From a virus (lineage: Duplodnaviria; Caudoviricetes), in the IMG/VR virus record IMGVR_UViG_3300025570_000015, positions 1-61,867 of that record: 61,867 bases of DNA. One strand, given 5' to 3'. Every line of letters starts with the position of its first letter. Position 1 is the stretch's first letter. A model generated the notes under the pieces. The model was not told the origin of the DNA. It did no database searches and was given only the letters and a program-made list of their open reading frames with translations. Below are positions 1 to 57,485 of the stretch, one piece after another. Both the position numbers and the translations under genes were made by a program.

Positions 1-127
1 TCGAGTTTAATTTCGATCTGGTTCACTGCACGCAGTATTGCGTGAGCATCTTCACGTACATCAACGTCTGATGCACTACTGTCAGCGAATAACCTTAGTT
101 GGTCATCGCGTACCTGTTGCATAAAAT
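1..127. repeat. Exact 127-nt direct repeat of 37458-37584
   Basis: Base-by-base identity from tcgagtttaa to ...gcataaaat; the next base differs (g vs t). Confidence 0.95.
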
Positions 128-2275: not shown

Positions 2276-2285
2276 GATCTATTCC

Positions 2286-18948: not shown

Positions 18949-19137
18949 TCACAATTTTTCCATATTAGCTAGTACAACGCGCATTCTATCTGATAACTTC
19001 CACGTCCCAGCGCGCCACCTAGCGGCATGTTGGGCATCTTCCAACGTCAAACCACGGCTCATATAGCTTTTTATCCATTTATTCATCATTAAATTTTTCA
19101 TCTTGGGTGACAAATTTGAAAATTTTTTTTGGTTCAT
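18949..19137 (-). CDS. Conserved small hypothetical protein
   Basis: 62 aa, near-identical at 54491; coupled to the TerL stop. Confidence 0.65.
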   Translation of the reverse strand: MNQKKFSNLSPKMKNLMMNKWIKSYMSRGLTLEDAQHAARWRAGTWKLSDRMRVVLANMEKL

Positions 19138-20531
19138 GCAATTCCCTTTAAATTGCGTTTAATTGACTTTTTCCAGCTTATATTTGCTCCAGATAGGGCT
19201 GTAGCTGCGTCGGAAGCCATAGTTAAGCATAATGCGTCGGCTAAATCGGGCGATTTTAGGCCACGCCTTCGCATTTCGTCTTTACTTTCGGCTTTCATCT
19301 TGCCTGCGCTGGTAAATGAGTACCTTATGCCAGTTAGCTCGGCTAAGAGTTGGTCATTCTTTGGTAATTTGCAGGATCTATCTTCGAGCCATCCCTTTGT
19401 CTTAAACCACAACTCGCTGCGTAAGTTTGTGTAGGTCTTGCCCATCGCGGGCGCTTCGCCAACATTAATTCCACGCACTGGCGCGCCTAACTCACGTAAT
19501 CTATCAACTACACCGCCGCCAACGCCAATACTATCCACGAGGATCTCGTTTGGGCGCAGGCTGGGCGATAGGCTTTCATATTCAGCCATTACTCTGCCCA
19601 CAGTCTGCATTAAGTCTAATCCCTGCCACGCGGTAATATCTGTCACGACATTGCCATACCTTTTGCATAATGCAGTCTTATCCGTGCCAAACCTTGCCAC
19701 GTCCAAGCCCCATATCGGCCTAATGTCGGGCGTAACCTCAATGTCTCGATGTATGGCGCTCTCGGCGACGTGAAACGGAATAATCGTATCATCGTCAGCC
19801 ATTGGAAACTCGCCAAGCACACGTATGCGAAACGCATTGCTATCCTCGCCGTAACGCTCACGCATTTCATCGACAAATTCTGTGGATACGAGAGGGCTAT
19901 CCACGCACGACCATCTGCGCGTCCACCAGCTCTTAGCCATTCTCGTTTGGCTCTCAAAGAATGTGCCAGAAGATCGCGTGGGGTTAGATAGGAGTAGCGT
20001 GGTTGCGCTGTGGCCTGACATCGAGCCAGCCGCAGCTTCGAAGACTTTCTCAGGCACACCTGACGCCTCATCTACCACCAATAAGACATTCTCGGAATGC
20101 ACACCAGCTAGTGCTTCTGGCGTTTCTGCGCGTGACGTTCTAGCTGATATGAAAGCCTCGGACGCTGCCGACGTTAGCTCGACGCGGTCTGATTTGGTGG
20201 TAATCAATTGCTGTAGGTGGGGTGGCAACTCGTTAATCCATCGTTTTAGCTCGGCAAACAATGCGTCAAACAATTGGGATGACGTGGGGGCTGTGACGAC
20301 TACTTTGTTGGGGAAGCGCAGTAGGAGAAACCAGAGCATAGCCCAAGACGCGGACGTTGACTTGCCCGTGCCGTGGCCTGATCTGACGGACATTTTACGC
20401 TCGCCGGATGCAATGGCGTTCAGAAACTCTTCCTGATAATCGTATGGCGTAGCGCCCAGCACCTCTTTGACGAATAGCACTGGCTCGTCCCGGTAACGTA
20501 GGACAAACTCTTGTAATGGGTTGTCACTCAT
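19134..20531 (-). CDS. terL: Terminase large subunit
   Basis: Walker A SVRSGHGTGKS, Walker B VVDEASG, nuclease GLDVARFGTD and SPDLADAL; start set at MSDNPLQ. Confidence 0.92.
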   Translation of the reverse strand: MSDNPLQEFVLRYRDEPVLFVKEVLGATPYDYQEEFLNAIASGERKMSVRSGHGTGKSTSASWAMLWFLLLRFPNKVVVTAPTSSQLFDALFAELKRWINELPPHLQQLITTKSDRVELTSAASEAFISARTSRAETPEALAGVHSENVLLVVDEASGVPEKVFEAAAGSMSGHSATTLLLSNPTRSSGTFFESQTRMAKSWWTRRWSCVDSPLVSTEFVDEMRERYGEDSNAFRIRVLGEFPMADDDTIIPFHVAESAIHRDIEVTPDIRPIWGLDVARFGTDKTALCKRYGNVVTDITAWQGLDLMQTVGRVMAEYESLSPSLRPNEILVDSIGVGGGVVDRLRELGAPVRGINVGEAPAMGKTYTNLRSELWFKTKGWLEDRSCKLPKNDQLLAELTGIRYSFTSAGKMKAESKDEMRRRGLKSPDLADALCLTMASDAATALSGANISWKKSIKRNLKGIA

Positions 20532-21024
20532 CGGATACATCCTCGTAATCTGCGTCAATCGTCTTTGCTTCACGCTCACGATCTTCGCGGTCTATTGCCG
20601 CCAAATCTGAATTAACTTTGCGTAGGGCGTCTAAATGCATGTCGCCCACGGATATTGTCACGTTTGTCTGGGGTCTGTTGCCGTATCGCTCTTGGTTGTA
20701 CGAGCCTGCCATGAATTTACGCCACTGCACCTTCTCTCGTGTGGCGGCTATTTCACTGCTGGTTGAGCCGCCATCCAAGTCATCTACCATTGTTAAGCCT
20801 TGCTCTACGAGTGCATCCGCTGCCTCTTGGCGGGCTTTGGCTAGGGCGTTGCCATACTCAGGGATAGTCTTGAGGGATGTGCTAAGATATTGCCTCGAGC
20901 AGTCATATTCTTTCGCAAGGGCTGTGAGGGTATTGCCAGAAGCTATCTGCTCAAACAAGTATTCAGCGCCGCCTTTGCTCAGTACATCAGCGAGTATTCT
21001 CCTGCGTAACGCTTTGCCTGCCAT
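20524..21024 (-). CDS. terS: Terminase small subunit
   Basis: N-terminal HTH (QIASGNTLTALAKEY), helical core, ERYG motif; directly upstream of and overlapping TerL. Confidence 0.8.
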   Translation of the reverse strand: MAGKALRRRILADVLSKGGAEYLFEQIASGNTLTALAKEYDCSRQYLSTSLKTIPEYGNALAKARQEAADALVEQGLTMVDDLDGGSTSSEIAATREKVQWRKFMAGSYNQERYGNRPQTNVTISVGDMHLDALRKVNSDLAAIDREDREREAKTIDADYEDVSDE

Positions 21025-21246
21025 TGATGCTCTCCTATTTTTTTTAAATTTTACAGTAGTTGTGCGTTATATTGCAAGGGGTGTGGGGGGGCTAATTTTT
21101 GGCTCTCGTGTGCGTGAGATTATACACACACACTACCCCCGTACAATCCGTTGACGGGGGGGCTTCCTCGCTGCGCCAGATGTGTAGTTTCGCCTAAATG
21201 GAACAACGCATAGCTCATATTGGCTGTATATTGACCGATATTGGGC

Positions 21247-21259
21247 TAACCTATTGATA
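21247..21259. promoter_or_regulatory. IHF binding site
   Basis: TAACCTATTGATA matches the IHF consensus YAANNNNTTGATW; conserved at 57386. Confidence 0.6.
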
Positions 21260-21289
21260 TCATTAGATATACTGTGGATTTACCTGTGT

Positions 21290-21317
21290 ATGTCCGATAA
21301 TGTATATTATGTTAACT
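21290..21317 (+). other. dif: dif-like XerC/XerD recombination site (candidate attP)
   Basis: ATGTCCGATAA-TGTATA-TTATGTTAACT; 19 contiguous nt identical to E. coli dif (GGTGCGCATAA TGTATA TTATGTTAAAT). Confidence 0.85.
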
Positions 21318-21448
21318 TTCAGTTTATCCGAAAGTATTGACTATAGATTTGCTTATTGCTACGCGGATGCGCGCCTGTAACAGTGCGCCAATGTGCTTTA
21401 TCGCACGCAATCTACACGCATTACCCACGCTGTTATGCCGCCAGTAAG

Positions 21449-21652
21449 TCAATGTACTGTCTGCTCTGCTTGCTCTAGCACTTGCTCGTGCAGCTCTATG
21501 AGCGCCTCTGCTAACGATTGTAGCACAGTCTGAGCTGGCACAATGGTAAGCCTATCAGTTAAATAGTCGCACAGCTCGTTAAGCTCGTTGTCCGCATCAT
21601 CACTGTCATCACAATGTAAATCTAATGTTAAGTTGATGATAAATTCAGACAA
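21449..21652 (-). CDS. Small acidic hypothetical protein
   Basis: 67 aa, TTG start with AGGAG RBS; conserved at 57588. Confidence 0.6.
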   Translation of the reverse strand: MSEFIINLTLDLHCDDSDDADNELNELCDYLTDRLTIVPAQTVLQSLAEALIELHEQVLEQAEQTVH

Positions 21653-21664
21653 TGTCTTGCTCCT

Positions 21665-21770
21665 TGAAATGTGGGCGTGCAGTGAGGAAAGATAACCGCA
21701 CGCCCTAGTTAAGCGGGCATCGCATTGAAATGCAAAACAATGCGTCGGGAGGAGGAGAACCCGCTAACTA
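21665..21770 (-). ncRNA. Putative structured antisense sRNA
   Basis: Stems gggcgtgc/gcacgccc, cgcattg/caatgcg and agcggg/cccgct; conserved at 57805-57909; upstream promoter; loops complementary to phage RBS/start regions. Confidence 0.65.
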
Positions 21771-21771
21771 T

Positions 21772-21800
21772 ACTATGCCCCATGAAGGGCTGTTGTTCAA
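21772..21800 (-). promoter_or_regulatory. Sigma70-like promoter of the sRNA
   Basis: Minus strand TTGAAC-N17-CATAGT; the right copy has TTGATC-N17-CATAGT. Confidence 0.5.
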
Positions 21801-21802
21801 GC

Positions 21803-22096
21803 CTATCCAACCTCATTTGATAGCTCGTGAGCCAGCGCAAGGTAGCCGCACCCATCAATGCTACTATCCTCGTGCGACCCATTGCGTAACCTCGCAATCT
21901 TCAGCAGCGCCATCATGTTTGCCACGTCAGCCGCATTGATCCGCGTGCCAGTGTAAGCCGACCACATACTCGCAATACATCCAAAGTTATCCTGCGCGCT
22001 TCCGTACTGCCTCGCCCTATCCCCGTTGATCAATTGCTTTGCCGTGTCCAATACCTCAGACCTCATCATACCATCACTACTCATCTGCTTAACCAT
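21803..22096 (-). CDS. DUF6378-like phage protein
   Basis: LINGDRARQYG...NF..IA.MWSAY...MALLKIAR...DS.IDGCGY pattern. Confidence 0.7.
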   Translation of the reverse strand: MVKQMSSDGMMRSEVLDTAKQLINGDRARQYGSAQDNFGCIASMWSAYTGTRINAADVANMMALLKIARLRNGSHEDSSIDGCGYLALAHELSNEVG

Positions 22097-22199
22097 TGTT
22101 AATACCCCGTTTCCCTAGCTCGTCCCTCGCTTGCCACCAAGCCAGACATTTGTTGTTCTTTTCTTTCATCTTATGTTCCATAATTCTTTACCCCGATTT

Positions 22200-22355
22200 T
22201 ACCCTACTATTATTTACCTACTATTATATTACACCTATAGGTGTAATAATATAATAATAGGTTTGGTACGAGCTATTATTAATGATTAATAGGTTATGCT
22301 CTAAGTCATTGATATTGTTATTATTAATGCCAATTAATAGGTAATTAATAGGTAT
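22200..22355. other. Putative replication origin
   Basis: AT-rich; 22-bp perfect palindrome at 22227-22248; ATTAATAGGT repeats at 22285, 22333 and 22344; IHF box TAAGTCATTGATA at 22302; directly downstream of the primase-helicase. Confidence 0.65.
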
Positions 22356-22359
22356 CATT

Positions 22360-24237
22360 TTACTTCACTTTACCAAAACTATCGGTAAACCATATAAATC
22401 CCTCATTTTGGACAATATGACCGCCGCCAATTAGGCCATTGTAAGCTTGTTTGTACGTGCTAGTTGGATTGCTCGCGGATACTTTGCCCATGAAGTGCGA
22501 CTTGATTTCTTCCTCATTTATGCACCAATACGTGTTGGGTTCAGGCCAACCAACGCCAGCAGGGTTAGATTTGCCAACACCCTCGCCTCGCAATTGCTGG
22601 AAGCACGTCTTAAATAAGATCTGCTGCTTGCCCTTAATAGCTTTCTTATTGGCGGTTTCAATATCATCACTGCTTGCCGGCACAATCACGCACGTTGTCA
22701 CTGGATCGCCGTCAGCGTCATGCCCTAGCTCGATGACATTCAACTTAAAGTGAAACTTACGCCCACCCTCGAGATCTCTCTGCTTGGTGGACAACGCAGT
22801 GCGCAAGCCTGTCGCCTCGTCGTAACTCAGCTCTATCTCAGTCTCAACAGCAGCTCTCAGTGAACTATGACCACGAGCCTTTGCGTCCAAGTTCTTGCCA
22901 GAGTGATGCACGAGCAATAGATGAGCGCCCGTCTCGCCGCGTATCCTGTCACACGCAGCTATCACAGCCGTTGATGATGCAGGCGAGTTCTCATCACCGC
23001 CCGGCATTGATCTGGATAGCGTATCAACGATAATCATTGCGATGTCGCCATGCGCTCTCTTCACCTCGTCGCATAAGTCTATGATAAGCTGCACGTCAGC
23101 GTTTTCCTCAAGTAAATTCACTGGCAATGCACGCATAGCTAATTTAGCCTCATGCTCTGGATATTGCTGGCGTAAGGCCACGATCCTATTATGCGTTGTC
23201 ATACCGCCCTCAAGAGCCAGAAACAGCACCACACCGCCCTTTACCTTATTGCCATGCCAATCCTGCCCAGCAGATACATGCCAAGCCACATCCTGCACAA
23301 AGAATGACTTACCAACATTGCTTGGCCCATACACCATTGATAGCTGCCCAGCGCCAAACCAACCCTTGACAAGATAACTCCTGTCTAGCTGTGGTACTGC
23401 GTCGCCCGGAAAGAATACCTGATCTAACAAGCTTTTCACTTCCAATGCCTTGGCAGTCGCCTCTTTGCCCTGATTAATCCACATATCAGAGAAGTCCCAG
23501 CCGCCAATCTCTGGCACAATAGATTGCACCCCATGATCAGCAACGCATTTCTCAATCGCTTTTAAGCCTGCCTCGTCATTATCACCCGCAATTACCAAAC
23601 GCAAATTAGGACGTGCCTCTAACAGCTCACCTATCACAGCCGTCATATTGCCCGCAGATAATGCAAATACTGCCGGCCTACCCGTCGCCATATTCACTGA
23701 CATTGCAGTTGCCCATCCCTCGCATATGTAAACCAGATCATCTAATTTGCCGCCAATTACGCTAAAATTACCCACAACAGGCATTCCCGCAGAAAATTTC
23801 TTTGCGCCTGTCGGATTAATGTTCTGCGTGCCTACACGCTTACCCTTGGCATTAATGACCGGGATAACCAATATGTCACCCTTTATATCGGCATTGCCAA
23901 GCCCGATCTTTTTCTTAACCAAATATGGATGCGTAGCCTCTGCCTCTGGTTCAGGCCAACTTATGTTATATTCTTTTGTCATAGGCTTCTCATTCTCGTC
24001 AGGCCATAGCCTCTGCCTTCGCAGCGCATCTTTTATGCCAGCAAAGTCTGAGCATTTACGGCAGCTCACCATCACGCAGTTCTGAGCATCTTCCCTAATC
24101 CAGAACCTATCTTCACCCTGACATACCGGGCAAGCGCCATGATATTCGCCAATAGCCGTCTTTTTCAATGATAGTGCGCTTATAATTTTATCTGAGTATC
24201 TATCCCAGCTTGCATTTGGAAATTTCGTATTTTGCAT
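22360..24237 (-). CDS. Primase-helicase (Zn finger + TOPRIM + RecA/AAA_25 helicase + C-terminal wHTH)
   Basis: CPVC..DRF...CRKC zinc finger; CEGWATA and AGDND TOPRIM motifs; GPSNVGKS Walker A; IIVDT Walker B; VHHSGK and RGHSSL. Confidence 0.9.
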   Translation of the reverse strand: MQNTKFPNASWDRYSDKIISALSLKKTAIGEYHGACPVCQGEDRFWIREDAQNCVMVSCRKCSDFAGIKDALRRQRLWPDENEKPMTKEYNISWPEPEAEATHPYLVKKKIGLGNADIKGDILVIPVINAKGKRVGTQNINPTGAKKFSAGMPVVGNFSVIGGKLDDLVYICEGWATAMSVNMATGRPAVFALSAGNMTAVIGELLEARPNLRLVIAGDNDEAGLKAIEKCVADHGVQSIVPEIGGWDFSDMWINQGKEATAKALEVKSLLDQVFFPGDAVPQLDRSYLVKGWFGAGQLSMVYGPSNVGKSFFVQDVAWHVSAGQDWHGNKVKGGVVLFLALEGGMTTHNRIVALRQQYPEHEAKLAMRALPVNLLEENADVQLIIDLCDEVKRAHGDIAMIIVDTLSRSMPGGDENSPASSTAVIAACDRIRGETGAHLLLVHHSGKNLDAKARGHSSLRAAVETEIELSYDEATGLRTALSTKQRDLEGGRKFHFKLNVIELGHDADGDPVTTCVIVPASSDDIETANKKAIKGKQQILFKTCFQQLRGEGVGKSNPAGVGWPEPNTYWCINEEEIKSHFMGKVSASNPTSTYKQAYNGLIGGGHIVQNEGFIWFTDSFGKVK

Positions 24238-24258
24238 TTTATTCCTTCCTCAGTTTAT

Positions 24259-24333
24259 CGGACATGGTGGACATGTCTCGCAAATGTCCTGTCGTGTCCG
24301 TATGACAAAACCTCGTAAAGTTCTGTCATACGG
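24259..24333. promoter_or_regulatory. Tandem hairpins upstream of the primase RBS
   Basis: cggaca..ggacat/atgtcc..tgtccg and ccgtatgaca/tgtcatacgg; compensatory changes in the right copy. Confidence 0.6.
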
Positions 24334-24342
24334 AATGTTTAA

Positions 24343-24987
24343 TTAAAATGGGATGTCATCTTCCAGATCATTAGATGGTGTTGGCGTAGCTGGTGGCAAT
24401 CCAAATGGATCATGCTCCACACCATTTATTGGTGTTGCCCCACCAGAAAATCCGCCTGCAACTTCAGTGAATGGATCATCTGCTTCCTGCTTTTCAGCTA
24501 GTTCCAACACTTGCACTGCACGTAGTCTCAACGACACGCCATTAATTGTGCCTGTGTTGTATGGCACGACTGTCACTGCAATATTTACAGTTGACCCTGA
24601 TGTTAGCTCAAATCCGTCAGGCAATTTCTTGCGTGATGCATCGACCTGACGTGGTGGGTTTGTAGCTTCGCCAGAGTATGCGCCTTTTAGTTTGGCTTTA
24701 CCAATCCAGTGACCCTGCTTGTTGTCATCAATCTTATATGGCAAACTTAAAGGCTTCTCAGGCCATTTGCGTTTGCTAGTCTCTAAAGCCGCCGCGTTTT
24801 TATATGACTGCATACAAATAGCGTTCAGCTCCTTGCACTGCTCACCTGTCAGATTGAACGACATTTCGTAAGCCGCCCCTTCCGCAGTGGGGTCACATTT
24901 CTGGCTCTTGTACTCATCCTGATCAAATCGGTAAGTAGCATTTAGTCTTGGGTATAGCGCTTTCACGCCGCTTATTATGTGTTGCAT
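24343..24987 (-). CDS. ssb: Single-stranded DNA-binding protein (T7 gp2.5-like)
   Basis: GVSLRLRAVQVLEL motif and acidic C-terminal tail EDDIPF. Confidence 0.8.
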   Translation of the reverse strand: MQHIISGVKALYPRLNATYRFDQDEYKSQKCDPTAEGAAYEMSFNLTGEQCKELNAICMQSYKNAAALETSKRKWPEKPLSLPYKIDDNKQGHWIGKAKLKGAYSGEATNPPRQVDASRKKLPDGFELTSGSTVNIAVTVVPYNTGTINGVSLRLRAVQVLELAEKQEADDPFTEVAGGFSGGATPINGVEHDPFGLPPATPTPSNDLEDDIPF

Positions 24988-25033
24988 TTTACAACTCCTT
25001 TAAATGTGTGCAGCACCCCTGCACTGGGATTTC

Positions 25034-25828
25034 TTATAAGCCGTGGTTCTCATCTAACCAAGCAGGCAAATGTAATGTTTCAAGTTCAGGCCACCCGGTA
25101 TCAAACGTGTTTGTATCTTGTGCCACTTTAATTTTACGCAATGTCTTAAACATCTCATCTTCCGCATACTTATTGTATTTATCTGATAATTCATAGCAAG
25201 CTGTGGCATAGCTGTTCTTCTCAGTTGCAATAAAAATAAAATTTGTAGTTTCATAACCGCATAACTTTAATACATATCGATAGAAACACGCCTGCAAATC
25301 ATATCTATAATTACGCACCGACTTATCAAAGCCACGCTGCGATGCATCCAAACAAGACTTTAAGTCAACCACAATGCCTGCCTCTTTTAGCAATCCATCA
25401 GGCCTGCACTTTAACTCAAGTCCCGTCTCTGGGCATTCAGCTATGAAGCTGTATTCAGCAAGCATGTCTTTGTTGGTCAGTAAGTTGCGCGCCATTTTAT
25501 TTTGCAGGCAACCATCAACCATTTTCTGACACTGCTCAAACTCGCCCTCTGGCAATAGGATCTCATCGTCACCTAGAAAATTTTCCTGATCTTTCCAAGC
25601 CTTACTGCCACGACGTTGCAACCCAGAGTTAGTTACCAAGTTTTTCTCTGGCTCTAACACCATAGCATGAAATGCTGATCCTAAAACCATAGCTGGCGTG
25701 GAGTTAAACGTGGTGTTCTTCCAGTGGTATAGCGATGACGTTGCAACTGTCTTTACCGCGCTTGATGATATTGCAGGCATTTCGTGGTATGCCTTATTTG
25801 ATAGTTCTTCACTTGGTATTATCTGCAT
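25034..25828 (-). CDS. Exonuclease VIII/RecE-like PD-(D/E)XK nuclease (DUF3799-like)
   Basis: YH...ISSS, GSAFHAMVLEP, KCRPD, VDLKS and YDLQACFY motifs. Confidence 0.85.
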   Translation of the reverse strand: MQIIPSEELSNKAYHEMPAISSSAVKTVATSSLYHWKNTTFNSTPAMVLGSAFHAMVLEPEKNLVTNSGLQRRGSKAWKDQENFLGDDEILLPEGEFEQCQKMVDGCLQNKMARNLLTNKDMLAEYSFIAECPETGLELKCRPDGLLKEAGIVVDLKSCLDASQRGFDKSVRNYRYDLQACFYRYVLKLCGYETTNFIFIATEKNSYATACYELSDKYNKYAEDEMFKTLRKIKVAQDTNTFDTGWPELETLHLPAWLDENHGL

Positions 25829-25843
25829 TTGTATTCTCCTAAT

Positions 25844-26314
25844 TTATTTATTTAAAACTTCTGCTCCATACAGAGCAATTAAACTAGCTTCCGCACGCCC
25901 ATCATCTTTTTTGCGTGCGAACCTCTCATAATGGTCTGGAAATCTTTGAATTGCAAGTTGGCGGCTAGTGTCTTTATCAGATGATAAATTAAAGTGTTTC
26001 TTCCACTTGCTAGGCGTAACTAAGTGCATAGGCGTCTTATTAGCTGCCACACACGCAATCAACGCGCCGTATCCCATACCAAACCTAAATGTAGCGACTG
26101 AAGATTGACCGGGACGTGACGCAACTTGCTCAAGCACAGCCATACGATCCTTCGCTTCTGGCTCAAGCATGTGCAGTAACGAGTGTATGTCTATCTCAAT
26201 TTTACCGCGATTATTTAAAATGGTGGGCATGTCTTGCACGTCTAAATCTTTAGTGCGCGTGCAATAATGTGCAATTGCCCCAGAGAAACCCGGATCAACG
26301 CCAACAATAATCAT
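25844..26314 (-). CDS. RuvC-like Holliday junction resolvase
   Basis: VGVDPGFSGA, VLEQV, FRFGMGYG, PSKWKK and DDGRAEA motifs. Confidence 0.8.
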   Translation of the reverse strand: MIIVGVDPGFSGAIAHYCTRTKDLDVQDMPTILNNRGKIEIDIHSLLHMLEPEAKDRMAVLEQVASRPGQSSVATFRFGMGYGALIACVAANKTPMHLVTPSKWKKHFNLSSDKDTSRQLAIQRFPDHYERFARKKDDGRAEASLIALYGAEVLNK

Positions 26315-26511
26315 TCTACAACATCCGACGCAATTATTTCAGCTTCAGCCTCATTGTCTGGCTTTGCAACTTCCACGCCCGCTTTGGTTGCTTCCATATA
26401 TGAAGCCATGCGAACAAACGAGCTGAAAGGCAATGCAGATTTATGCGCAGCCTTTGCCACAGCATCATATTGCTGCTCGCTAAAATTAATTAATACTCTT
26501 TTATCAACCAT
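26311..26511 (-). CDS. Ribbon-helix-helix-like transcription regulator
   Basis: KRVLINFSEQQYDAVAKAA...FSSFVRMA; first gene of the leftward early operon; start set at MVDKRV. Confidence 0.55.
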   Translation of the reverse strand: MVDKRVLINFSEQQYDAVAKAAHKSALPFSSFVRMASYMEATKAGVEVAKPDNEAEAEIIASDVVE

Positions 26512-26603
26512 TTTAAATCTCCTTGGGTCTGATAAATTTAGCAATAAAGCAATGTAAATAGATGCACAAGTACATTATGATATAAAAATGATATATAAAG
26601 TGT

Positions 26604-26631
26604 TTGACCCCCACGCAAAAATACTTATAAT
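26604..26631 (+). promoter_or_regulatory. Strong sigma70 promoter of the rightward early operon
   Basis: TTGACC-N16-TATAAT. Confidence 0.7.
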
Positions 26632-26665
26632 GGCTGTATAAATGCAAAATATGAGGAAATATAAA

Positions 26666-26998
26666 ATGACAAAATATGTAGTAATAGCAAACCTAACCAT
26701 TGCTGATCAAACAAAATTGGGCTTTGAGGTTAAGTCAAAATTTGTTTCTAATTATTTGGATACATCAACCAAAGATAATCCTAACAAACCTTTAATCGCA
26801 CTTTATGGTGAAAAGCCAAAATTGTTTGACAATATTGCTTTTGCGGACGCATTTGCAGAAAGGTTGCGTAGGTATAGATATGATGGTCAACAAATCACAG
26901 TGGCTTGGTTTGAAACGATTGAGTACAATGCAAAATTAGCAGAGGCTTCATTTGCTGATCAAGTTGAAAACTTTCTATTTGGTGGGGTGCAGGCATGA
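26666..26998 (+). CDS. Early hypothetical protein
   Basis: GAGGA RBS before ATG 26666 (alternative start 26642). Confidence 0.65.
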   Translation: MTKYVVIANLTIADQTKLGFEVKSKFVSNYLDTSTKDNPNKPLIALYGEKPKLFDNIAFADAFAERLRRYRYDGQQITVAWFETIEYNAKLAEASFADQVENFLFGGVQA

Positions 26999-27582
26999 GC
27001 TGGCACGAAAATGATTATCACGATAAATGGGATAACCCAAGATATGTAGCCGCAGTTGAGGCAAGCATAAAAGCCAATGCTAGAAAAAGCAGGGCTAAAA
27101 AGTTTTACGCTAATGATGAGCGAGCGCAGGAAATTACAGAATTTTTAGCTGGCTCTAGTTATGATAATGCAGATAGCTTTCTTGGCAAAATGGAAACAGC
27201 ATTAAATGACTATGGATCTTTAACTGAAAGCCAACGCAATGCGGTTGTAAAAATTATTGACAAACGTGCGGCTCTGGTTGCCGAGCGCCAAGCGGCTGAC
27301 GCTGACTGTAAGTGGGTGGGCGTTGTTGGTGAACGTCAGGCGTTCAGCCTAACAGTACAGCACGTTGTGGCTCTGGAAGGATATTACGGCACGACATACA
27401 TTAACATATGCCGCGATGAGAATAATGACATCGTTATCTATAAAGGATCTAATGGTTGGTCAAAAAAAGGCACTGATGTAACTTGCATGGCAAAAATTAA
27501 AGAGCATGGCGAGCGCGATGGTGTTAAGCAAACTATTATCCAGCGCCCTACAAAAGTAAAAATCAATGGTGAGGATTGGTAA
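26995..27582 (+). CDS. Early protein with C-terminal OB-fold-like domain
   Basis: VGVVGERQ...IKEHGERDGVKQTIIQRP pattern common in phage early genes. Confidence 0.6.
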   Translation: MSWHENDYHDKWDNPRYVAAVEASIKANARKSRAKKFYANDERAQEITEFLAGSSYDNADSFLGKMETALNDYGSLTESQRNAVVKIIDKRAALVAERQAADADCKWVGVVGERQAFSLTVQHVVALEGYYGTTYINICRDENNDIVIYKGSNGWSKKGTDVTCMAKIKEHGERDGVKQTIIQRPTKVKINGEDW

Positions 27583-27698
27583 TGAACATCACAATGATCA
27601 AAGACGGATTGGCTATGGCATTATTTGCTGTAGCCGCCGTACACTTGCCAGAGATTATAGTTTTTCTGGATCAATTTATTAATGTTTGGGGGAGATAA
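27582..27698 (+). CDS. 38-aa hydrophobic peptide (not in the ORF track)
   Basis: MNITMIKDGLAMALFAVAAVHLPEIIVFLDQFINVWGR; TAATG coupling at both ends. Confidence 0.55.
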   Translation: MNITMIKDGLAMALFAVAAVHLPEIIVFLDQFINVWGR

Positions 27699-28375
27699 TG
27701 GCTACACTAAAAAAATTAAAATCTGACTATGAGTTTTGGAGTGGCGCTTATGCTGATGTTGCTTGTAGTGCTGATTTAAAAGGTATTGATAGGCTTAATG
27801 ATCAAGCTGAAGCCTCACGTTCGCTTGCTGTAGATGCATTTAATGCTTACTTGGATGAACTAAAAAACCAAGAAAAAGTCAAAAAAACCAGAGAAGCATT
27901 AGATCAAGTCATGGATACAATTGCGCCAACAGAAACACCTTTTTTTGCAAAACCAAAACTACTGACAAGTAATGACCAAAAAATGACAATATCTTTAATT
28001 GAAAAAATGGATGAATTGAAGTTAAAGATATTCTTATTCCATAATCTTAAAAATATTGACCCACATTTATATAAATTATTGTTTACAGAAATAGATAAAA
28101 ATAAATTTCCAGTCAGAGTTAAAAATTGTTTTTTCCATACATTTAAATTTGAAGTCTTTCATTATGATTTAATATTAAGAAACGATAAGTTTTTTAAATA
28201 TATACCAAATTTTGGCAAAAAATCATTAAAACTCGTAAAAGAATATTTAGATGAATACGGCTTGAAGTTAAATACAGATTTAAAAGATATTAAATATGAA
28301 GCGTTAAAATCTTTAAACCTTATTAATTTAAAGCATGATTATTTGTTTGTTGAAAAAAGAGGTTTTGTTCAATGA
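27698..28375 (+). CDS. Early protein with RNA polymerase alpha-CTD-like domain
   Basis: FPVRVKNCF...DLI...IPNFGKKSLKLVKEYLDEYGLKL resembles RpoA CTD (LSVRSANCL...PNFGRKSL.EIK..L...GL.L). Confidence 0.7.
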   Translation: MATLKKLKSDYEFWSGAYADVACSADLKGIDRLNDQAEASRSLAVDAFNAYLDELKNQEKVKKTREALDQVMDTIAPTETPFFAKPKLLTSNDQKMTISLIEKMDELKLKIFLFHNLKNIDPHLYKLLFTEIDKNKFPVRVKNCFFHTFKFEVFHYDLILRNDKFFKYIPNFGKKSLKLVKEYLDEYGLKLNTDLKDIKYEALKSLNLINLKHDYLFVEKRGFVQ

Positions 28376-28602
28376 CATTCTACACAACACTCATTATCAC
28401 ATACGTCATTGGTGGCGTGGAGTTGAGTAATGACACATTGTATCGCAGCGCAATGGAGTGCGGCGATGCATTGCCGGCAGCGTATCAGCCATATGAACAT
28501 TTGGATAGCATGGCGCAATGCATTGAGACAAACTATGTCAGCTCTGCATCAATATCAATTGAGCCAACGCTCAGACCGAAAGGATTAAACAATGGCGGGT
28601 AA
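28372..28602 (+). CDS. Hypothetical protein
   Basis: 76 aa, translationally coupled in the early operon. Confidence 0.55.
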   Translation: MTFYTTLIITYVIGGVELSNDTLYRSAMECGDALPAAYQPYEHLDSMAQCIETNYVSSASISIEPTLRPKGLNNGG

Positions 28603-28816
28603 AGAAATATACATCCCATGCCCGGAATGCGCGGGCAATGGTACTACATTGTATGAAAAGGATTTCGATATTTTTCATCAAAGTTATATGTATGAAAAAA
28701 GTGAATGCAAAAATTGCGCTGGTACTGGCTTAATTACTCCAGAAGAAATCAGTAAACGCACAAAAATCCCAGCGCTTGATAAGGCTGGCAAATTTGAAGA
28801 TTGGAATAAAAAATGA
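28592..28816 (+). CDS. Small zinc-finger protein (DnaJ-type CxxCxGxG repeats)
   Basis: CPECAGNG and CKNCAGTG. Confidence 0.65.
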   Translation: MAGKEIYIPCPECAGNGTTLYEKDFDIFHQSYMYEKSECKNCAGTGLITPEEISKRTKIPALDKAGKFEDWNKK

Positions 28817-28831
28817 TTGAGGAGAATACAA

Positions 28832-29038
28832 ATGGCAATGGGTTCGAAAGAAGTACACCAATATGTGAGGCGTCTGCAAAAGATGAACCGCGAAATAATC
28901 AAAGACATGAAGACGCCAGACCCCACACGAAATCGTGGTTACTACCTTTGGTTCATGAAAGAGCAGCAGGCGATACTGGACAACCTAGAGCAACGCCTTA
29001 CGCTTATGCGACGTTCGAAAAAACCAGAGAAGCCATGA
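28832..29038 (+). CDS. Hypothetical helical protein
   Basis: GAGGAG RBS before ATG 28832; stop overlaps the next start (ATGA). Confidence 0.55.
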   Translation: MAMGSKEVHQYVRRLQKMNREIIKDMKTPDPTRNRGYYLWFMKEQQAILDNLEQRLTLMRRSKKPEKP

Positions 29039-29454
29039 AAGGCCAATCAAAGAGCGTTCGCTATGAGATGATGTATGGTCACTTGCTCTACACGTTTGAG
29101 AAAAAGCAAATTAAGCTTGGCCTCAGAAATAATTTAAACAGGAGTGACAGGCCACGTCAGGTCATCGCTAATAAATCATCGCATAAAAATTTTGTGACCG
29201 CCAATGATGTGAGAAACATCAAACCAATACCGCAAAAAAAATATGATCAGATATTGAAGTATGTCAATCGTGGCGGCGAATACACGACAACTATGGTTTC
29301 GAATGGCACTGGTCTATCTGTATCAGATTTGGCGTGGACGCTGAATGTCATGTATAAGGGCAAGCTTGTGGATCGTGTAAGTAAGAGAACCACGCCAATC
29401 ATCGGCAACCCCGGGCCTAAGTCGTGGCGGTACGTTTACTTTAAGAAGAAATAA
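29035..29454 (+). CDS. Winged-helix DNA-binding protein
   Basis: YDQILKYV...TTTMVSNGTGLSVSDLAWTLNVMYKGKLVDR; start re-placed at MKGQSK. Confidence 0.55.
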   Translation: MKGQSKSVRYEMMYGHLLYTFEKKQIKLGLRNNLNRSDRPRQVIANKSSHKNFVTANDVRNIKPIPQKKYDQILKYVNRGGEYTTTMVSNGTGLSVSDLAWTLNVMYKGKLVDRVSKRTTPIIGNPGPKSWRYVYFKKK

Positions 29455-35370: not shown

Positions 35371-36327
35371 TTATGAAGTTGTGTTGTCAGCAATGATACC
35401 ATTTGCTTTTTCATTTTTAGCGCACAGTGTTAGCTCTGTGGTGACTTGTCTTGTGGAATTATCTCCAGTTTTTGCGAGTGCAACATTCTTTGTTGGACGT
35501 AAAACTGCAACTTCCCACATATTGTCCTGCATGATGAAAACATCGCGTGATCTGTTCTCCCGGCTGGGCATAAATTCAACAGATCCCCAAGGTGTTACAT
35601 ATACAGCAAGTGATTTGATTACTTTCTCATCACCAGCTTGTACTGCTGAACGCTGGTTGTTGTTACCAGTGAAGCCTAAAGCTAGGTTCATTTGGAATGC
35701 AGACAAGTAAACTGTGTCTGGCTTTCCGCCCTCTTCCCAAATTGACTGCATAACGCCATCAAATTTAGTTTGTGAAAATGCTGTTGGCGTACCATCATCA
35801 GTACGCGCATCAGAACCATCACCAGTTGGGTTTGCGCCAGAGTTTCCAGATTGGAAGTCTACGTTTGTAATCATCCATGCTGGAGCGCCTGCAAGTTCGC
35901 GTGCTGTTGATGAATTACCAGCAACTCTTGCGTTGTTTGCGAATAGAGCTTTTTCTATATCGAGCTTCTGCTCTTTCGCCACTTTTAAGGTGTGATAAGC
36001 TAACTCACGACCCCGGCCTGCTTTATTTAGACCTTCATCTGTGTCAGGAACTACAACTGCGTTTTTAAAGATTTGCGTGTAATTGCCTAAACGAGATGTT
36101 GCTGTACGTGCTTCAGCAGTAGTTGCATCGCCTTCAATGTGAGCGTTTGCGCCAGATGCACGTAGTGAATCTGTCTGCCACTCGGTAAAAGTGTTGCGTG
36201 CAGTAGTTTTCTTACACTTAGAATATAGTGGAGTTTCCTCCGGGCTTACGTTGTAAATCACGTCAGATAAATCTTCACGTATCCCCACAGCATCATAGCT
36301 GTCAAATGTGTTGGATGGTTGTGCCAT
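35371..36327 (-). CDS. Major capsid protein (SU10/DUF5309-like)
   Basis: REDLSDVIYNVSPEETP, EWQTDSL, NYTQIF and LAKTGD motifs; downstream of scaffold, followed by a terminator. Confidence 0.88.
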   Translation of the reverse strand: MAQPSNTFDSYDAVGIREDLSDVIYNVSPEETPLYSKCKKTTARNTFTEWQTDSLRASGANAHIEGDATTAEARTATSRLGNYTQIFKNAVVVPDTDEGLNKAGRGRELAYHTLKVAKEQKLDIEKALFANNARVAGNSSTARELAGAPAWMITNVDFQSGNSGANPTGDGSDARTDDGTPTAFSQTKFDGVMQSIWEEGGKPDTVYLSAFQMNLALGFTGNNNQRSAVQAGDEKVIKSLAVYVTPWGSVEFMPSRENRSRDVFIMQDNMWEVAVLRPTKNVALAKTGDNSTRQVTTELTLCAKNEKANGIIADNTTS

Positions 36328-36368: not shown

Positions 36369-37403
36369 TTAGCTATCACCAATTATCAAGTTCAATGCAT
36401 CATCGATTGAACCTGTCTTCTGCAAGCGCTGTTGCGCTTTTTTACGAGTTGCGGAATTTCCTTCTTGACGCTTTTTAGCACCAGCCTTCACTACAGGGCT
36501 TGGCTTCTTACCACTAGCCTTTGCAGATTTCTTCTTGGCTACCAACTCCTGCCACTTGCGAGCATCGTTTGTAAGTCTTACAGCTCTTGCATCTTTGACG
36601 CTTTGCATCTCTTCAACAGTGTAGCCGTAAGATACACCGACATTTACGAGTGCATCCTTAATTTGCTGGCCTTTAACTGGGTCAGCTATTTCTGGAATAT
36701 ATTGTTGCAAAAGTCTAACCTGTTCAAGATCGTATTCTTGTTCGGCGGCAAGAGATGCCTGCTGCTTTTGCATTGCAATATTCTGGAGTTGTGTTTGATT
36801 TTGGTTGTATTCCTGCACCTTCTTATCATACAAAGCTTTCTCAGTCATATATCCAATTGGATCATCATTGAGTAATTGTTCGGATGGTTCGATTGGGCGC
36901 TGTAATCCACCAGCTTCAAACGATTGGTGCAACCGCATAAATTGGTCTTCCCGCTGTTGCAACGCGGCTTCCTTTTGATCAAAATGTGCTTTGATCCTAA
37001 CTTGAGCCTGTTCGACTTGCTTTCGCTCCTCGGCAGCCTCTTGAAACCGCTTATTAATTGCCGCTTGTCCCGCATATGATTGCTTTAACTGCTCCAGTGT
37101 AGCCTGCTCTATCTTGCCGTCAGCTTTGACGGAATAAAGGACATCTTCTTCAGTAGCCTCTTGAGGGTCTTCATCGTCAATTTCCACATCATCAAGATCA
37201 TATTCTTCATCATCTTGTTCGCTGGATGCTTCTAGTTCAGCGTCATCTTCGCTCTCGGCTGTTGCCTCAATCGCTTCACTTTGATCGTCATCTTCAGTCT
37301 CAGTGATTTGATCAACGGCTTCGCTCAGATTATCGCCACCAGTGTCTTCTGGGGCGGGTGATAATAAGCTGTTTACAGCTTGGTCTAGGCTAGTCGATTC
37401 CAT
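36369..37403 (-). CDS. Scaffolding protein
   Basis: Acidic N-terminus, VKADGKIEQATLEQL, coiled coil, C-terminal LQKTGSIDDA; upstream of capsid. Confidence 0.8.
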   Translation of the reverse strand: MESTSLDQAVNSLLSPAPEDTGGDNLSEAVDQITETEDDDQSEAIEATAESEDDAELEASSEQDDEEYDLDDVEIDDEDPQEATEEDVLYSVKADGKIEQATLEQLKQSYAGQAAINKRFQEAAEERKQVEQAQVRIKAHFDQKEAALQQREDQFMRLHQSFEAGGLQRPIEPSEQLLNDDPIGYMTEKALYDKKVQEYNQNQTQLQNIAMQKQQASLAAEQEYDLEQVRLLQQYIPEIADPVKGQQIKDALVNVGVSYGYTVEEMQSVKDARAVRLTNDARKWQELVAKKKSAKASGKKPSPVVKAGAKKRQEGNSATRKKAQQRLQKTGSIDDALNLIIGDS

Positions 37404-37408
37404 CGGTG

Positions 37409-37651
37409 CTAGTTCCTTTGTTTGCGATCTAAAATTAACTCTGCCGCCAAAGCAGCGTCGAGTTTAATTTCGATCTGGTTCACTGCACGCAGTATTGCGT
37501 GAGCATCTTCACGTACATCAACGTCTGATGCACTACTGTCAGCGAATAACCTTAGTTGGTCATCGCGTACCTGTTGCATAAAATTTATAAAAGCTGTGTC
37601 GTTTTTTAGACGCTTAGCTTCATCTGCGTTTATGCGTATTTCTGTTGTCAT
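37409..37651 (-). CDS. Small head-associated protein
   Basis: 80 aa between portal and scaffold. Confidence 0.7.
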   Translation of the reverse strand: MTTEIRINADEAKRLKNDTAFINFMQQVRDDQLRLFADSSASDVDVREDAHAILRAVNQIEIKLDAALAAELILDRKQRN

Positions 37652-54490: not shown

Positions 54491-54679
54491 TCACAATTTT
54501 TCCATATTAGCTAGTACCACACGCATTCTATCTGATAGCTTCCACGTTCCAGCTCTCCAGCGGGCGGCGTGTTGTGCATCTTCCAAAGATAGGCCTCGGC
54601 TCATATAATTTCTAATCCACTTATTCATCATTAAATTTTTCATCTTAGGTGACAAATTGTCGAATTTTTTTTTATTCAT
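54491..54679 (-). CDS. Conserved small hypothetical protein
   Basis: Homolog of 18949-19137. Confidence 0.65.
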   Translation of the reverse strand: MNKKKFDNLSPKMKNLMMNKWIRNYMSRGLSLEDAQHAARWRAGTWKLSDRMRVVLANMEKL

Positions 54680-56566: not shown

Positions 56567-56576
56567 TGTTGTTCTC

Positions 56577-57134
56577 CTATCTACCGTGGTTAGGGTGAAA
56601 ATTATATTTTTTTTCGGCGGCACTTCTAGCGGATGCTGCTTCTGTAATATTATCATAATATCCAAGGTTAATTGTTTTTCGATTAACGCCTATTTGTGCT
56701 GACCACTTTGATAATTTTTTATTCCAAGATACACCAATAATCCCGCTAGTATTAGTGCTAGGGCGTTTTTTATTTTTACCATTTTCACGAACACTAACAA
56801 CTCTCATATTTTTTATGCGGTTGTCTAATGGGTTTCCATTGATATGATCGATTTGTTTATTAGGCCATTTGCCGTGATATAATGCCCAAGCAACTCTGTG
56901 AGCGCCGTAAGCTATCTTGTTAACCTTGCATTTAAGATATCCTCTGCCATCCTTGTAGGTTGCAGTTTCTTTGCCGGCATAGTTACTATTCCAATATTTA
57001 ACTGATCTTTCGATGTTTGCTGTTTTAGGCGGGTAATGCTCTTTGGTTCTCTTGAGCCAATACATTCTGCCCGTCTTTGGGTTATAACGTATTGTCTTGC
57101 GTAAATACTCTACAGTTGGTAATTCTTTTTTCAT
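56577..57134 (-). CDS. HNH-AP2 homing endonuclease
   Basis: YNPKTG, AHRVAW, IDHINGNPLDNRIKNMR (HNH); NTSGIIGVSW...WSAQI...LGYY (AP2); absent from the left copy. Confidence 0.88.
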   Translation of the reverse strand: MKKELPTVEYLRKTIRYNPKTGRMYWLKRTKEHYPPKTANIERSVKYWNSNYAGKETATYKDGRGYLKCKVNKIAYGAHRVAWALYHGKWPNKQIDHINGNPLDNRIKNMRVVSVRENGKNKKRPSTNTSGIIGVSWNKKLSKWSAQIGVNRKTINLGYYDNITEAASARSAAEKKYNFHPNHGR

Positions 57135-57244
57135 CGCGGCTATCCTTTCATAGCTATTGCCGTGTAGGTGCATTACTTTTTGCAGTTTAAGTAATGCACC
57201 ATTATACTTTAAATTATTTTTTTTCGAGAAGCAACATAGGCAAT

Positions 57245-57485
57245 TGTGTGCGTGAGATTATACACACACACTACCCCCGTAGAATCCGTTGACGGGGGGG
57301 CTTCCTCGCTGCGCCAGATGTACTAGTTTCGCCTAAATGGAACAACGCATAGCTCATATTGGCTGTATATTGGCCTATATTTGGCTAACCTATTGATATC
57401 ATTAGATATACTGTAGATTTACCTGTATATGTCCGATAATGTATATTATGTTAACTTTCAGTTTATCCGAAACTGTTGACTATAG
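57245..57485. other. Conserved non-coding region with IHF box (57386-57398)
   Basis: Near-identical to 21108-21345. Confidence 0.65.
57429..57456 (+). other. dif: dif-like XerC/XerD site (second copy, direct repeat)
   Basis: ATGTCCGATAATGTATATTATGTTAACT, identical to 21290-21317. Confidence 0.85.

What the first reader, a model, noticed from the sequence alone, without database searches (positions are those of the whole stretch)
21247..21317. Integrase-less tailed phage with a dif-like XerCD site: candidate Xer-exploiting element (IMEX) forming tandem arrays
Seen: ATGTCCGATAA-TGTATA-TTATGTTAACT occurs identically and in direct orientation at 21290 and 57429 (36,139 bp apart), each about 30 bp from a perfect IHF consensus box. 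The gene set, which spans more than one genome unit, has no recognisable tyrosine or serine recombinase. Known: this 11-6-11 layout, with a TGTATA core and a TTATGTTAA XerD arm, is proteobacterial dif. The best-known Xer-exploiting elements are filamentous phages and satellites (CTXphi, VGJphi, TLC) and islands such as the GGI; the Vibrio elements stack in tandem at dif. Inference: this podovirus-like phage either integrates at host dif through XerCD, which would explain head-to-tail related genomes with junctions at the dif sites, or persists as a plasmid and uses dif to resolve dimers. The XerC arm differs from E. coli dif, and the IHF box may be an accessory site that sets directionality.
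Basis: partly seen in the sequence, partly recalled or inferred. Interest (0 to 1): 0.92.

Follow-up and report, generated by a model that had tools for sequence, protein, structure and literature searches.

The report
Host-type dif site in marine phage
An abundant marine tailed phage with no integrase carries, next to its DNA-packaging genes, one copy of a site matching the chromosome-unlinking (dif) site of its likely roseobacter host, but the apparent tandem array is an assembly artefact.

Summary
The 28-mer is real, at both coordinates. It is a genuine dif-type Xer site. Across relatives the two 11-bp arms are invariant while only centre positions 2 and 4 vary. Both arms equal the single-copy chromosomal dif of HTCC2255-group roseobacters, an arm pair found in only 2 of 301 sampled family genomes. 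Six-frame searches found no tyrosine or serine recombinase, DDE integrase or XafT domain.

The "tandem array" is not supported. The window is a whole 61.9-kb metagenomic viral contig whose first 127 bases exactly repeat 37458-37584, a k-mer-sized join. So it is one 37,457-bp circle plus 24.4 kb of a co-occurring strain. Of five complete relatives, four carry one site and one carries none. The A:B variant depth ratios differ between runs. No host junction was found in any search.

New observations: the core travels with a ~105-bp conserved block on its XerC side, including an IHF-like box at a fixed 30 bp. This cassette occurs in both orientations just upstream of TerS. Unrelated tailed-phage lineages also place dif-like cores beside terminase genes.

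Best reading (about 0.4): a cer/psi-like site for intramolecular recombination of phage DNA by host XerCD. Integration at dif (about 0.25) is not excluded.

The parts
21290..21317 (+). dif-type core of unit A: XerC-type arm ATGTCCGATAA, centre TGTATA, XerD-type arm TTATGTTAACT
   Evidence: Arms invariant and centre variable in relatives. Identical 28-mer is a single-copy chromosomal site in three bacterial genomes.
57429..57456 (+). the same core in unit B (second strain)
21247..21259 (-). IHF-consensus box, 30 nt from the XerC-side edge of the core (unit A). The unit B copy is at 57386-57398.
   Evidence: Same spacing in 35 of 65 distinct contexts, and no other position in the left 150 bp.
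21185..21233 (.). strongly conserved block on the XerC side of the core (unit A; unit B copy at 57324-57372), a candidate accessory sequence
   Evidence: Conservation profile. Travels with the core when the cassette is flipped. Coordinates.
21135..21162 (.). G+C-rich inverted repeat between the cassette and TerS; no T-run, function unknown
   Evidence: No terminator call.
20524..21024 (-). small terminase subunit, Sf6-like (unit A). The unit B homologue is at 56066-56665.
   Evidence: phrog_1482; Pfam PF20901 at E 1.5e-9
19134..20579 (-). large terminase subunit (unit A). The unit B homologue is at 54676-56115.
   Evidence: phrog_2/phrog_5902. One search confirmed 587 relatives in viral contigs.
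56577..57173 (-). HNH endonuclease inserted between cassette and TerS in unit B only
   Evidence: phrog_99 at E 1.4e-61. It explains the ~1335-bp versus ~725-bp site-to-TerL spacing classes.
21449..21652 (-). 67-aa ORF on the XerD side (unit A; unit B copy at 57588-57791), no family match
   Evidence: Absent near the site in flipped-cassette relatives.
22360..24237 (-). primase-helicase, last large gene of the replication/recombination module (with Gp2.5-like SSB 24343-24987, exonuclease 25034-25828, RuvC-like resolvase 25844-26314)
1..127 (.). 127-bp stretch identical to 37458-37584: the assembly join. The genome unit is 1-37457.
   Evidence: exact identity; the next base differs
37458..37584 (.). 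second copy of the 127-bp join. The 24.4 kb of the second strain (unit B) runs from here to 61867.

Best explanation
The 28-mer is a functional mimic of the host chromosome's dif site, i.e. a Xer recombination site. There is one copy per ~37.5-kb genome of an abundant, uncultured roseobacter podophage that encodes no site-specific recombinase of its own.

Shown: the core has the 11-6-11 layout, both arms are identical to the dif arms of the probable hosts, and it forms a ~140-bp cassette with a conserved block and an IHF-like box on its XerC side.

Inferred: host XerC and XerD bind the two arms. Host architectural proteins on the XerC-side block make the reaction FtsK-independent and selective for two sites on the same molecule, as at plasmid cer/psi. 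The outcome would be intramolecular recombination, turning multimeric circular phage DNA (or the repeated ends of a terminally redundant, headful-packaged genome) into monomer circles, rather than stable insertion in the chromosome.

The two copies in the window do not mark an array. They belong to two strains joined by the assembler.
For: 1. Real Xer-type site. In 74 viral contigs found with the centre left free, the arms are fixed and the centre takes only four forms: TGTATA 56, TATGTA 8, TATCTA 5, TGTCTA 5. Only positions 2 and 4 vary.

2. Unbiased tally. 43 of 52 TerL-selected relatives with at least 1600 bp upstream carry the site, and 9 of 52 do not.

3. The core is the best-conserved block of the intergenic region: 1.87 bits per position against 0.97 and 1.12 in the adjacent 30 bp. 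The arms were the selection criterion for this set.

4. The same pattern is a single-copy chromosomal site in many phyla. The exact 28-mer is single-copy in three genomes.

5. Host match. HTCC2255 (G005), G339 and G342 each have one ATATCCGATAA-TATATA-TTATGTTAACT. Only 2 of 301 sampled family genomes have this arm pair. G339 also holds many small contigs of this phage group.

6. No recombinase of its own and no XafT domain.

7. Cassette. In genomes where the site is flipped relative to TerS, the 110-bp XerC-side flank is still homologous to the window's (z 5.6-9.5), while the 'stays with TerS' model gives z about 0. The IHF box sits at exactly 30 bp in 35 of 65 contexts.

8. Benchmark from PMC11724359 (passages read). 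[quoted passage not shown] Bare 28-bp sites are almost restricted to large replicons.

9. One site per genome in 4 of 5 complete relatives.
Against: No experiment or read-level evidence shows recombination at the site.

No partition or plasmid-maintenance gene and no recognisable repressor was found. Only weak atlas leads point to a winged-helix regulator. So a plasmid-like state is unproven, and a headful-packaging lytic phage needs concatemers, not monomers.

The conserved XerC-side block is about 105 bp, shorter than the ~180-200 bp of cer/psi, and its binding proteins are unknown. In standard genomes it could equally serve TerS expression or pac.

A third flank type keeps the core without the block (L049, L050, L067, L343).

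One complete relative (G360) and 9 of 52 relatives lack the site, so it is dispensable.

L343, a member of the group, has the host-type centre TATATA, which would permit full recombination with host dif.

The host assignment rests on arm identity plus co-binning, not on an isolate.
Confidence: 0.4

Rival explanations
1. Tailed IMEX. The circular phage genome integrates at the host's chromosomal dif through XerCD, using the 28-mer as attP, and lysogenises without an integrase.
For: No recombinase of its own. Both arms are identical to the probable host's dif. One group member (L343) and an unrelated lineage (L321-323) carry the host's exact TATATA centre. The TATCTA/TATGTA variants keep XerC-side homology with TATATA, as described for VGJphi (PMC5357621, passages). 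Full-length 28-bp dif mimics are reported for double-jelly-roll IMEXs (PMC12715192, passages). A divergently transcribed cluster with a possible winged-helix regulator exists.
Against: No integrated copy or junction was found:
- 103 site-bearing viral contigs show only phage-type flanks.
- TerL was found in 1 of 56 genus-group genomes, and only on small phage-only contigs.
- The portal was found in 3 of 401 family genomes, none informative.
- No phage genes lie within 20 kb of dif in G005, G339 or G342.
- No phage-left/host-right hybrid appears among 118 metagenome loci.

The XerD arm and 6-bp centre are canonical. Characterised IMEX sites deviate in ways that block FtsK/XerD excision. No DUF3653/XafT domain is present. 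In the centre-free scan, 0 of 74 contigs had the candidate host's centre. The window's 'array' is an artefact.
Confidence: 0.25
2. Not a Xer substrate. The block would be a packaging or regulatory element of the terminase operon (pac recognition site, late promoter or operator) that merely resembles dif, or a neutral remnant of a past exchange with host DNA.
For: The site always lies within about 0.15-1.5 kb upstream of TerS. Dif-like cores lie beside terminase genes in other lineages too. The upstream-of-TerS gap is one of the few large non-coding stretches where an AT-rich motif could persist.
Against: Identity of both 11-bp arms to the bacterial dif family and to the probable host. Variation is confined to the central spacer, which is the signature of a tyrosine-recombinase core. 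The cassette works in either orientation relative to TerS. Unrelated terminases would not all recognise host dif. No promoter or terminator signal beyond shuffles. A neutral remnant would not keep 22 arm positions invariant while flanks drop to about 70% identity.
Confidence: 0.1
3. One reading: two related genomes are physically joined head to tail (a tandem prophage array or a heterodimer made by Xer recombination) with joints at the dif sites.
For: The contig holds two diverged units with a site in each, 36,139 bp apart, close to one genome length. Some relatives share one flank and diverge at the core. There are 18 discordant against 31 concordant pairs at the core, versus 2/35 and 1/44 at right-hand control boundaries.
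Against: The longest exact repeat between the units is exactly 127 bp and begins at contig base 1, the mark of a de Bruijn join. That k=127 is a usual maximum k-mer is recalled, not from a call. A single crossover in 24.9-37 kb explains the contig, whereas joints at both dif sites would need three genomes. The A:B variant depth is 1333:940, 211:83 and 9.1:5.9 in three runs, so it is neither 1:1 nor constant. The source runs are shredded into 81-553-bp unitigs by strain variation. No complete relative has more than one site. Discordance is just as high at the -200 control boundary, 47/70.
Confidence: 0.04

Closest known systems
Plasmid Xer sites with accessory sequences (ColE1 cer, pSC101 psi)
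   Same: The replicon has no recombinase of its own. A dif-type core is bound by host XerC/XerD (psi is also 28 bp). A conserved block lies directly next to the XerC arm. The replicon is small to mid-size, the class that uses FtsK-independent, accessory-sequence-dependent resolution (PMC11724359 and PMC5357621, passages read).
   Different: The carrier is a tailed phage, not a plasmid. The conserved block is ~105 bp rather than ~180-200 bp and carries an IHF-like box instead of ArgR/ArcA boxes. The host is an alphaproteobacterium. No plasmid-maintenance genes are present. Activity is untested.
IMEXs (CTXphi, VGJphi, TLCphi, gonococcal island, Vibrio double-jelly-roll phages, microviruses)
   Same: A virus without integrase carries a dif-like site that matches the host's XerC and XerD arms.
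   Different: It is a tailed dsDNA phage of 37 kb. The XerD arm and 6-bp centre are canonical. No XafT/DUF3653 domain is present. No integrated copy or attL/attR was found in any search. The apparent array is an assembly artefact.
Chromosomal dif of HTCC2255-group roseobacters (G005, G339, G342)
   Same: 22 of 22 arm positions are identical in the ATAT variant of the phage site and 21 of 22 in the window's ATGT variant. Same 6-bp spacing.
   Different: The centre is TGTATA (or TATGTA, TATCTA, TGTCTA) against TATATA; only L343 has TATATA. The flanks are unrelated. The phage site has its own conserved XerC-side block.
Phage P1 loxP/Cre near pac
   Same: A site-specific recombination site is kept close to the packaging genes of a headful-packaging phage. 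In P1 it serves both to cyclise terminally redundant virion DNA and to resolve plasmid-prophage dimers.
   Different: P1 encodes its own recombinase; here the enzyme would be the host's XerCD. The pac site and packaging direction are unknown here.

Membership tests
dif-type Xer recombination site (xrs) | Two 11-bp arms around a 6-8-bp centre, with inner inverted repeat ATAA/TTAT | tested here: met
   ATGTCCGATAA-TGTATA-TTATGTTAACT. Layout as described in PMC11724359.
dif-type Xer recombination site (xrs) | Arms match those of bacterial chromosomal dif sites, especially of the host | tested here: met
The exact 28-mer is single-copy in 3 genomes. Both arms equal the dif of G005, G339 and G342.
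dif-type Xer recombination site (xrs) | Arms conserved while the central spacer is free to vary among relatives | tested here: met
   74 contigs with four centres; only positions 2 and 4 vary. Only the outermost 4 nt of the XerC arm vary.
dif-type Xer recombination site (xrs) | Bound and recombined by XerC/XerD | not testable with these tools
   Needs gel shifts and recombination assays.
IMEX | No recombinase of its own | tested here: met
   PF00589, PF00239, PF07508 and PF00665 are absent in six frames. No integrase PHROG among 44 window proteins scanned against PHROGs.
IMEX | Found integrated at host dif, flanked by hybrid dif-like sites | tested here: not met
   No junction or 105-107. The searches are samples, so this means 'not found', not 'absent'.
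IMEX | attP deviates from dif (degenerate XerD arm, non-homologous XerD-side centre, longer centre) or a Xer activation factor (DUF3653) is encoded | tested here: not met
   Canonical XerD arm and 6-bp centre. No PF12375. The minor variants TATCTA/TATGTA would be VGJ-like against a TATATA host.
IMEX | Tandem arrays at dif | tested here: not met
   127-bp assembly join. One site per complete genome in 4 of 5 relatives, none in the fifth. Unequal A:B depth.
cer/psi-type plasmid resolution site | Accessory sequence directly adjacent to the XerC arm | tested here: inconclusive
   A ~105-bp conserved block on the XerC side is inherited with the core in both orientations. It is shorter than 180-200 bp and absent in the third flank type.
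cer/psi-type plasmid resolution site | Carrier is maintained as a circular extrachromosomal replicon in dividing cells | not testable with these tools
   The contig closes on itself as a 37,457-bp circle in the assembly graph. No partition genes were recognised.
P1-type recombination site linked to pac | Site close to the packaging origin of a headful-packaging phage | tested here: inconclusive
   The site lies 265 nt upstream of an Sf6-like TerS. Terminase adjacency holds in 6 of 19 other sequence groups; the binomial p is 0.003 to 0.16 depending on the assumed baseline. pac itself is not mapped.

The most novel reading that the evidence does not exclude
Several unrelated headful-packaging tailed phages keep a copy of their host's dif site next to the packaging origin. 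Virion DNA would then carry the site in its terminal redundancy, and the host's resident XerCD could cyclise the genome on entry and monomerise it later. This would be the P1 Cre/lox logic with the recombinase outsourced to the host, working in purely lytic phages and needing no phage gene expression.
Probability: 0.15. Interest if true: 0.85.

Novelty: new variant of a known kind. Interest (0 to 1): 0.6.

Why it matters
Exploitation of host XerCD is documented for plasmids, filamentous phages, satellites, islands and, recently, double-jelly-roll phages. In three literature searches, none of the listed papers, nor the passages I read, described a tailed phage that does so.

This group is very abundant. 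One search confirmed 587 TerL relatives in the viral collection, and depth reaches about 1000-3000 in one run. Its probable hosts are an ecologically important coastal roseobacter lineage.

If the site works, it gives three things:
- A sequence-only handle for host prediction, by matching phage dif arms to host dif.
- A new route by which integrase-less tailed phages could persist, or process their DNA, using host enzymes.
- A testable link between Xer recombination and DNA packaging.

The case is also a caution. Contigs longer than one genome in viral catalogues can be strain chimeras, and repeats in them should not be read as arrays.

Tried and rejected
- Breakpoint test. Pairs of relatives that are at least 95% alike on one side and at most 80% on the other gave 18 discordant/31 concordant at the core, against 47/70 at -200, 11/48 at -300, 2/35 at +200 and 1/44 at +300. 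This is suggestive of exchange at the core but not specific, and assembly crossovers could mimic it. My motif-based flank typing misclassified right flanks and was dropped.
- Distant prophages in G135 and G260 (portal 24% and 23% identical by tblastn; 27% and 26%) share only portal and MCP and have no dif-like site within 40 kb. Uninformative.
- The variable island beside dif in G005/G339 versus G342 has no convincing second dif-like site.
- Laying reads. All holders but one are stored as contigs. The raw-read run gave only 46 reads and no pile-up of molecule ends, so nothing can be said about pac or cos. Loose ends at 21108 and 21292 correspond to co-occurring strain variants, not host DNA.
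- Protein atlas on p229 and p213 gave scores of 0.81-0.89, which are leads only.
- The promoter/terminator scan found nothing above shuffles.
- A half-site-like repeat at 21232-21243 is not conserved in relatives.
- The plasmid collection has no DNA relative of 20501-28500.
- L476 looked like a possible junction but is an ordinary bacterial dif locus.
- A source for P1 lox/pac cyclisation could not be retrieved.
- Complex prediction, structure prediction and the large protein searches were not used; none would have decided between the readings.
- Supplementary files of PMC3025954 and PMC11724359, which list predicted dif and xrs sites, were not seen and may hold roseobacter or phage entries.

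Full report
**What the window is**

The window is the whole of a 61,867-bp IMG/VR viral contig. It is classed linear, has no host flanks, and CheckV puts it at 100% complete. Self-comparison shows two related but diverged units. Blocks of 1-25684 match 37458-61867 at 74-88% identity, separated by unmatched stretches.

Gene content is that of a podovirus-like phage. Almost all genes are on the - strand:
- small and large terminase at 20524-21024 and 19134-20579
- tail and virion proteins
- portal at 191-2275 (and 37648-39732)
- scaffold and major head protein at 36369-37403 and 35371-36327
- holin and endolysin
- a replication/recombination module: RuvC-like resolvase, exonuclease, Gp2.5-like SSB, primase-helicase

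A small cluster (26642-29454) is transcribed the other way.

The closest cultured phage is Octadecabacter Antarctic DB virus 2, with a portal 47.5% identical. It shares the structural gene order. The only DNA-level hits are to roseobacter phages.

**Observation**

The 28-mer is present exactly at 21290 and 57429, both on the + strand. The IHF consensus lies 30 nt to its left in both units. No tyrosine or serine recombinase or DDE integrase is detectable in six frames. The two copies are simply the homologous positions of two units.

**The array is an assembly artefact**

- The longest exact stretch shared by the units is exactly 127 bp and begins at contig base 1 (1-127 = 37458-37584). The next base differs, and the next longest shared stretches are 86, 65 and 60 bp.
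- A join of exactly k-mer size at a contig end is what a de Bruijn assembler leaves when a path closes a circle and then continues along a second strain's branch. That 127 is a usual maximum k is my recollection.
- The circle is 37,457 bp, matching the complete relatives of 36.4-39.9 kb. Of five such relatives, four carry exactly one site and one carries none.
- In the likely source runs this region is broken into 81-553-bp unitigs. Depth is about 1000-3000 in X1 and about 150-370 in X2.
- The A-type and B-type variants to the right of the core have depths of 1333 vs 940 (X1), 211 vs 83 (X2) and 9.1 vs 5.9 (X6). These are neither equal nor constant, as physically linked units would be.
- One bacterial bin (G339) holds many small contigs from several strains of this phage, another sign of microdiversity.

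**The site is a real Xer-type site**

- One search confirmed 587 TerL relatives in the viral collection.
- Of the 80 best, 52 have at least 1600 bp upstream of TerL. 43 of those carry the site (35 in the window's orientation, 8 flipped) and 9 do not.
- With the centre left free, 74 contigs show only TGTATA (56), TATGTA (8), TATCTA (5) and TGTCTA (5).
- Besides centre positions 2 and 4, only the four outermost bases of the left arm vary.
- The core is the most conserved stretch of the intergenic region. Since the arms were used to collect the set, the 43-of-52 tally is the fairer measure.
The exact 28-mer is single-copy in three genomes. The plasmid collection gives Acinetobacter, Priestia and Klebsiella hits.

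**Host link**

The marine roseobacter HTCC2255 (G005) and two further genomes of its group (G339, G342) each have one ATATCCGATAA-TATATA-TTATGTTAACT in AT-rich, otherwise unrelated flanks. Only 2 of 301 sampled family genomes have this arm pair. The same host locus recurs in four marine metagenome contigs. The phage's second commonest variant (ATAT..., 20 of 133 loci) differs from it by one central base.

**New anatomy**

The core forms a cassette with about 105 bp on its XerC side. This contains a strongly conserved block (21185-21233) and the IHF-like box at exactly 30 bp in 35 of 65 distinct contexts.

In a subgroup with an inverted replication module, the cassette is flipped relative to TerS. 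Its XerC-side flank is still homologous to the window's (z 5.6-9.5), whereas the alternative that the flank stays with TerS scores z about 0.

A third flank type keeps the core alone. The 67-aa neighbour does not follow the cassette. In unit B and many relatives an HNH endonuclease sits between cassette and TerS.

**How it most likely works**

According to PMC11724359 (passages):
- Bare 28-bp sites are nearly confined to replicons above about 180-250 kb.

A 37-kb replicon with a conserved XerC-side block fits the first class. I therefore favour intramolecular recombination of phage DNA by host XerCD (confidence about 0.4). The binding, the role of the block and the plasmid-like or cyclising context are all inferred.

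**Integration (IMEX) is the main rival (about 0.25)**

For it:
- No integrase.
- Arm identity with the probable host's dif.
- A few members carry the host's centre (L343).
- Full-length dif mimics are reported in double-jelly-roll IMEXs.

Against it:
- No junction in any search.
- A canonical XerD arm and centre, unlike characterised IMEX sites.
- No XafT domain.

**A wider pattern**

A scan for TATATA-centred sites with this XerD arm found 26 viral contigs in 19 sequence groups.
- Six groups (13 contigs) have a terminase gene within about 600 bp.
- Two lineages are TerS-site-TerL. I confirmed one member of each with PHROGs (L321, L353); for the other members of these two lineages the arrangement is inferred from sequence similarity or the same ORF layout.
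- Two have the site just upstream of TerL, and two just upstream of TerS.
- One group is a microvirus.
- Of the remaining 12 groups, four were not tested.

The terminases of L321 and the window are essentially unrelated. Enrichment is p 0.003 to 0.16, depending on the baseline assumed. This is suggestive only, because the gap before the terminase genes is one of the few large non-coding stretches.

It motivates the boldest reading not excluded: a host-dif site kept near pac so that XerCD cyclises terminally redundant DNA, as Cre does at P1 lox (recalled).

**Literature scope**

I read passages, not whole texts, of PMC5357621, PMC6744903, PMC12715192, PMC3025954, PMC11724359 and PMC8026635. In the searches, none of the listed papers, nor the passages I read, described a tailed phage using host XerCD. 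That is a statement about those searches only.

Noticed in passing
window 1-127 and 37458-37584: An exact 127-bp repeat at the contig start. The contig is one 37,457-bp circle plus 24.4 kb of a second strain, a caution for viral catalogues that list it as one 100%-complete genome.
   Followed up: yes
L321:454-481 (also L322, L323): An unrelated tailed-phage lineage has GATTCCGATAATATATATTATGTTAACT in a 456-bp gap between TerS and TerL, followed by portal, protease and MCP. No integrase was found on these 16-46%-complete contigs.
   Followed up: partly
L353:4072-4099 (cluster L342, L344, L352, L353, L357, L359); L354:448-475; L360:460-487; L350:1140-1167: Further unrelated viral contigs have a dif-like core between TerS and TerL, or just upstream of TerL or TerS.
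   Followed up: partly
L347:764-791, and the microvirus records: A microvirus contig has the core between its replication initiator and major capsid genes. Many rodent-gut microvirus records match the core at 86-96%, in line with suspected Xer use by microviruses.
   Followed up: no
L364:3494-3521 (Rheinheimera phage Barba2A; 17 Barba records): A cultured myovirus carries a full 11-6-11 dif-like site (ATAACTCATAA-TCTATA-TTATGTTAAAT) in a 1.27-kb intergenic gap among hypothetical genes.
   Followed up: partly
L343:1710-1737: A member of the window's own phage group (95% identical to L067/L050) carries the host-type centre TATATA. It was missed by the TTCA-anchored scan.
   Followed up: yes
window 56577-57173: An HNH endonuclease gene is inserted between the dif cassette and TerS in unit B and in many relatives, but not in unit A. 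It looks like a mobile homing-type insertion.
   Followed up: partly
L335+L336 (G005) vs L337+L338 (G342), at the XerD side of dif: Synteny between two candidate host genomes breaks exactly at dif: 9.5 kb versus 5.5 kb of unrelated genes. This dif-adjacent variable island has no detectable second dif-like site.
   Followed up: partly
L140, L199, L223 (G001-G003): The phage's exact 28-mer is the single-copy chromosomal site of three small (1.5-2.0 Mb) genomes titled Thermodesulfobacteriota. None has the phage's TerL.
   Followed up: partly
window 26642-29454: An oppositely transcribed, lower-GC cluster. p229, p76 and p213 recur in 25-30 relatives, while p118 and p195 are rare. m77 (26311-26544) always accompanies RuvC. 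It may be a regulatory switch region of unknown function.
   Followed up: partly
window 10325-10377/10403-10455 and 49636-49698/49888-49950: Short direct repeats (87% identical) inside structural or tail-region genes of each unit.
   Followed up: no
window 21803-22096: A 97-aa ORF matches PHROG families labelled 'phosphofructokinase' (phrog_474, E 3.8e-33). The label looks implausible for a protein of this size. The ORF is conserved next to the primase-helicase.
   Followed up: no
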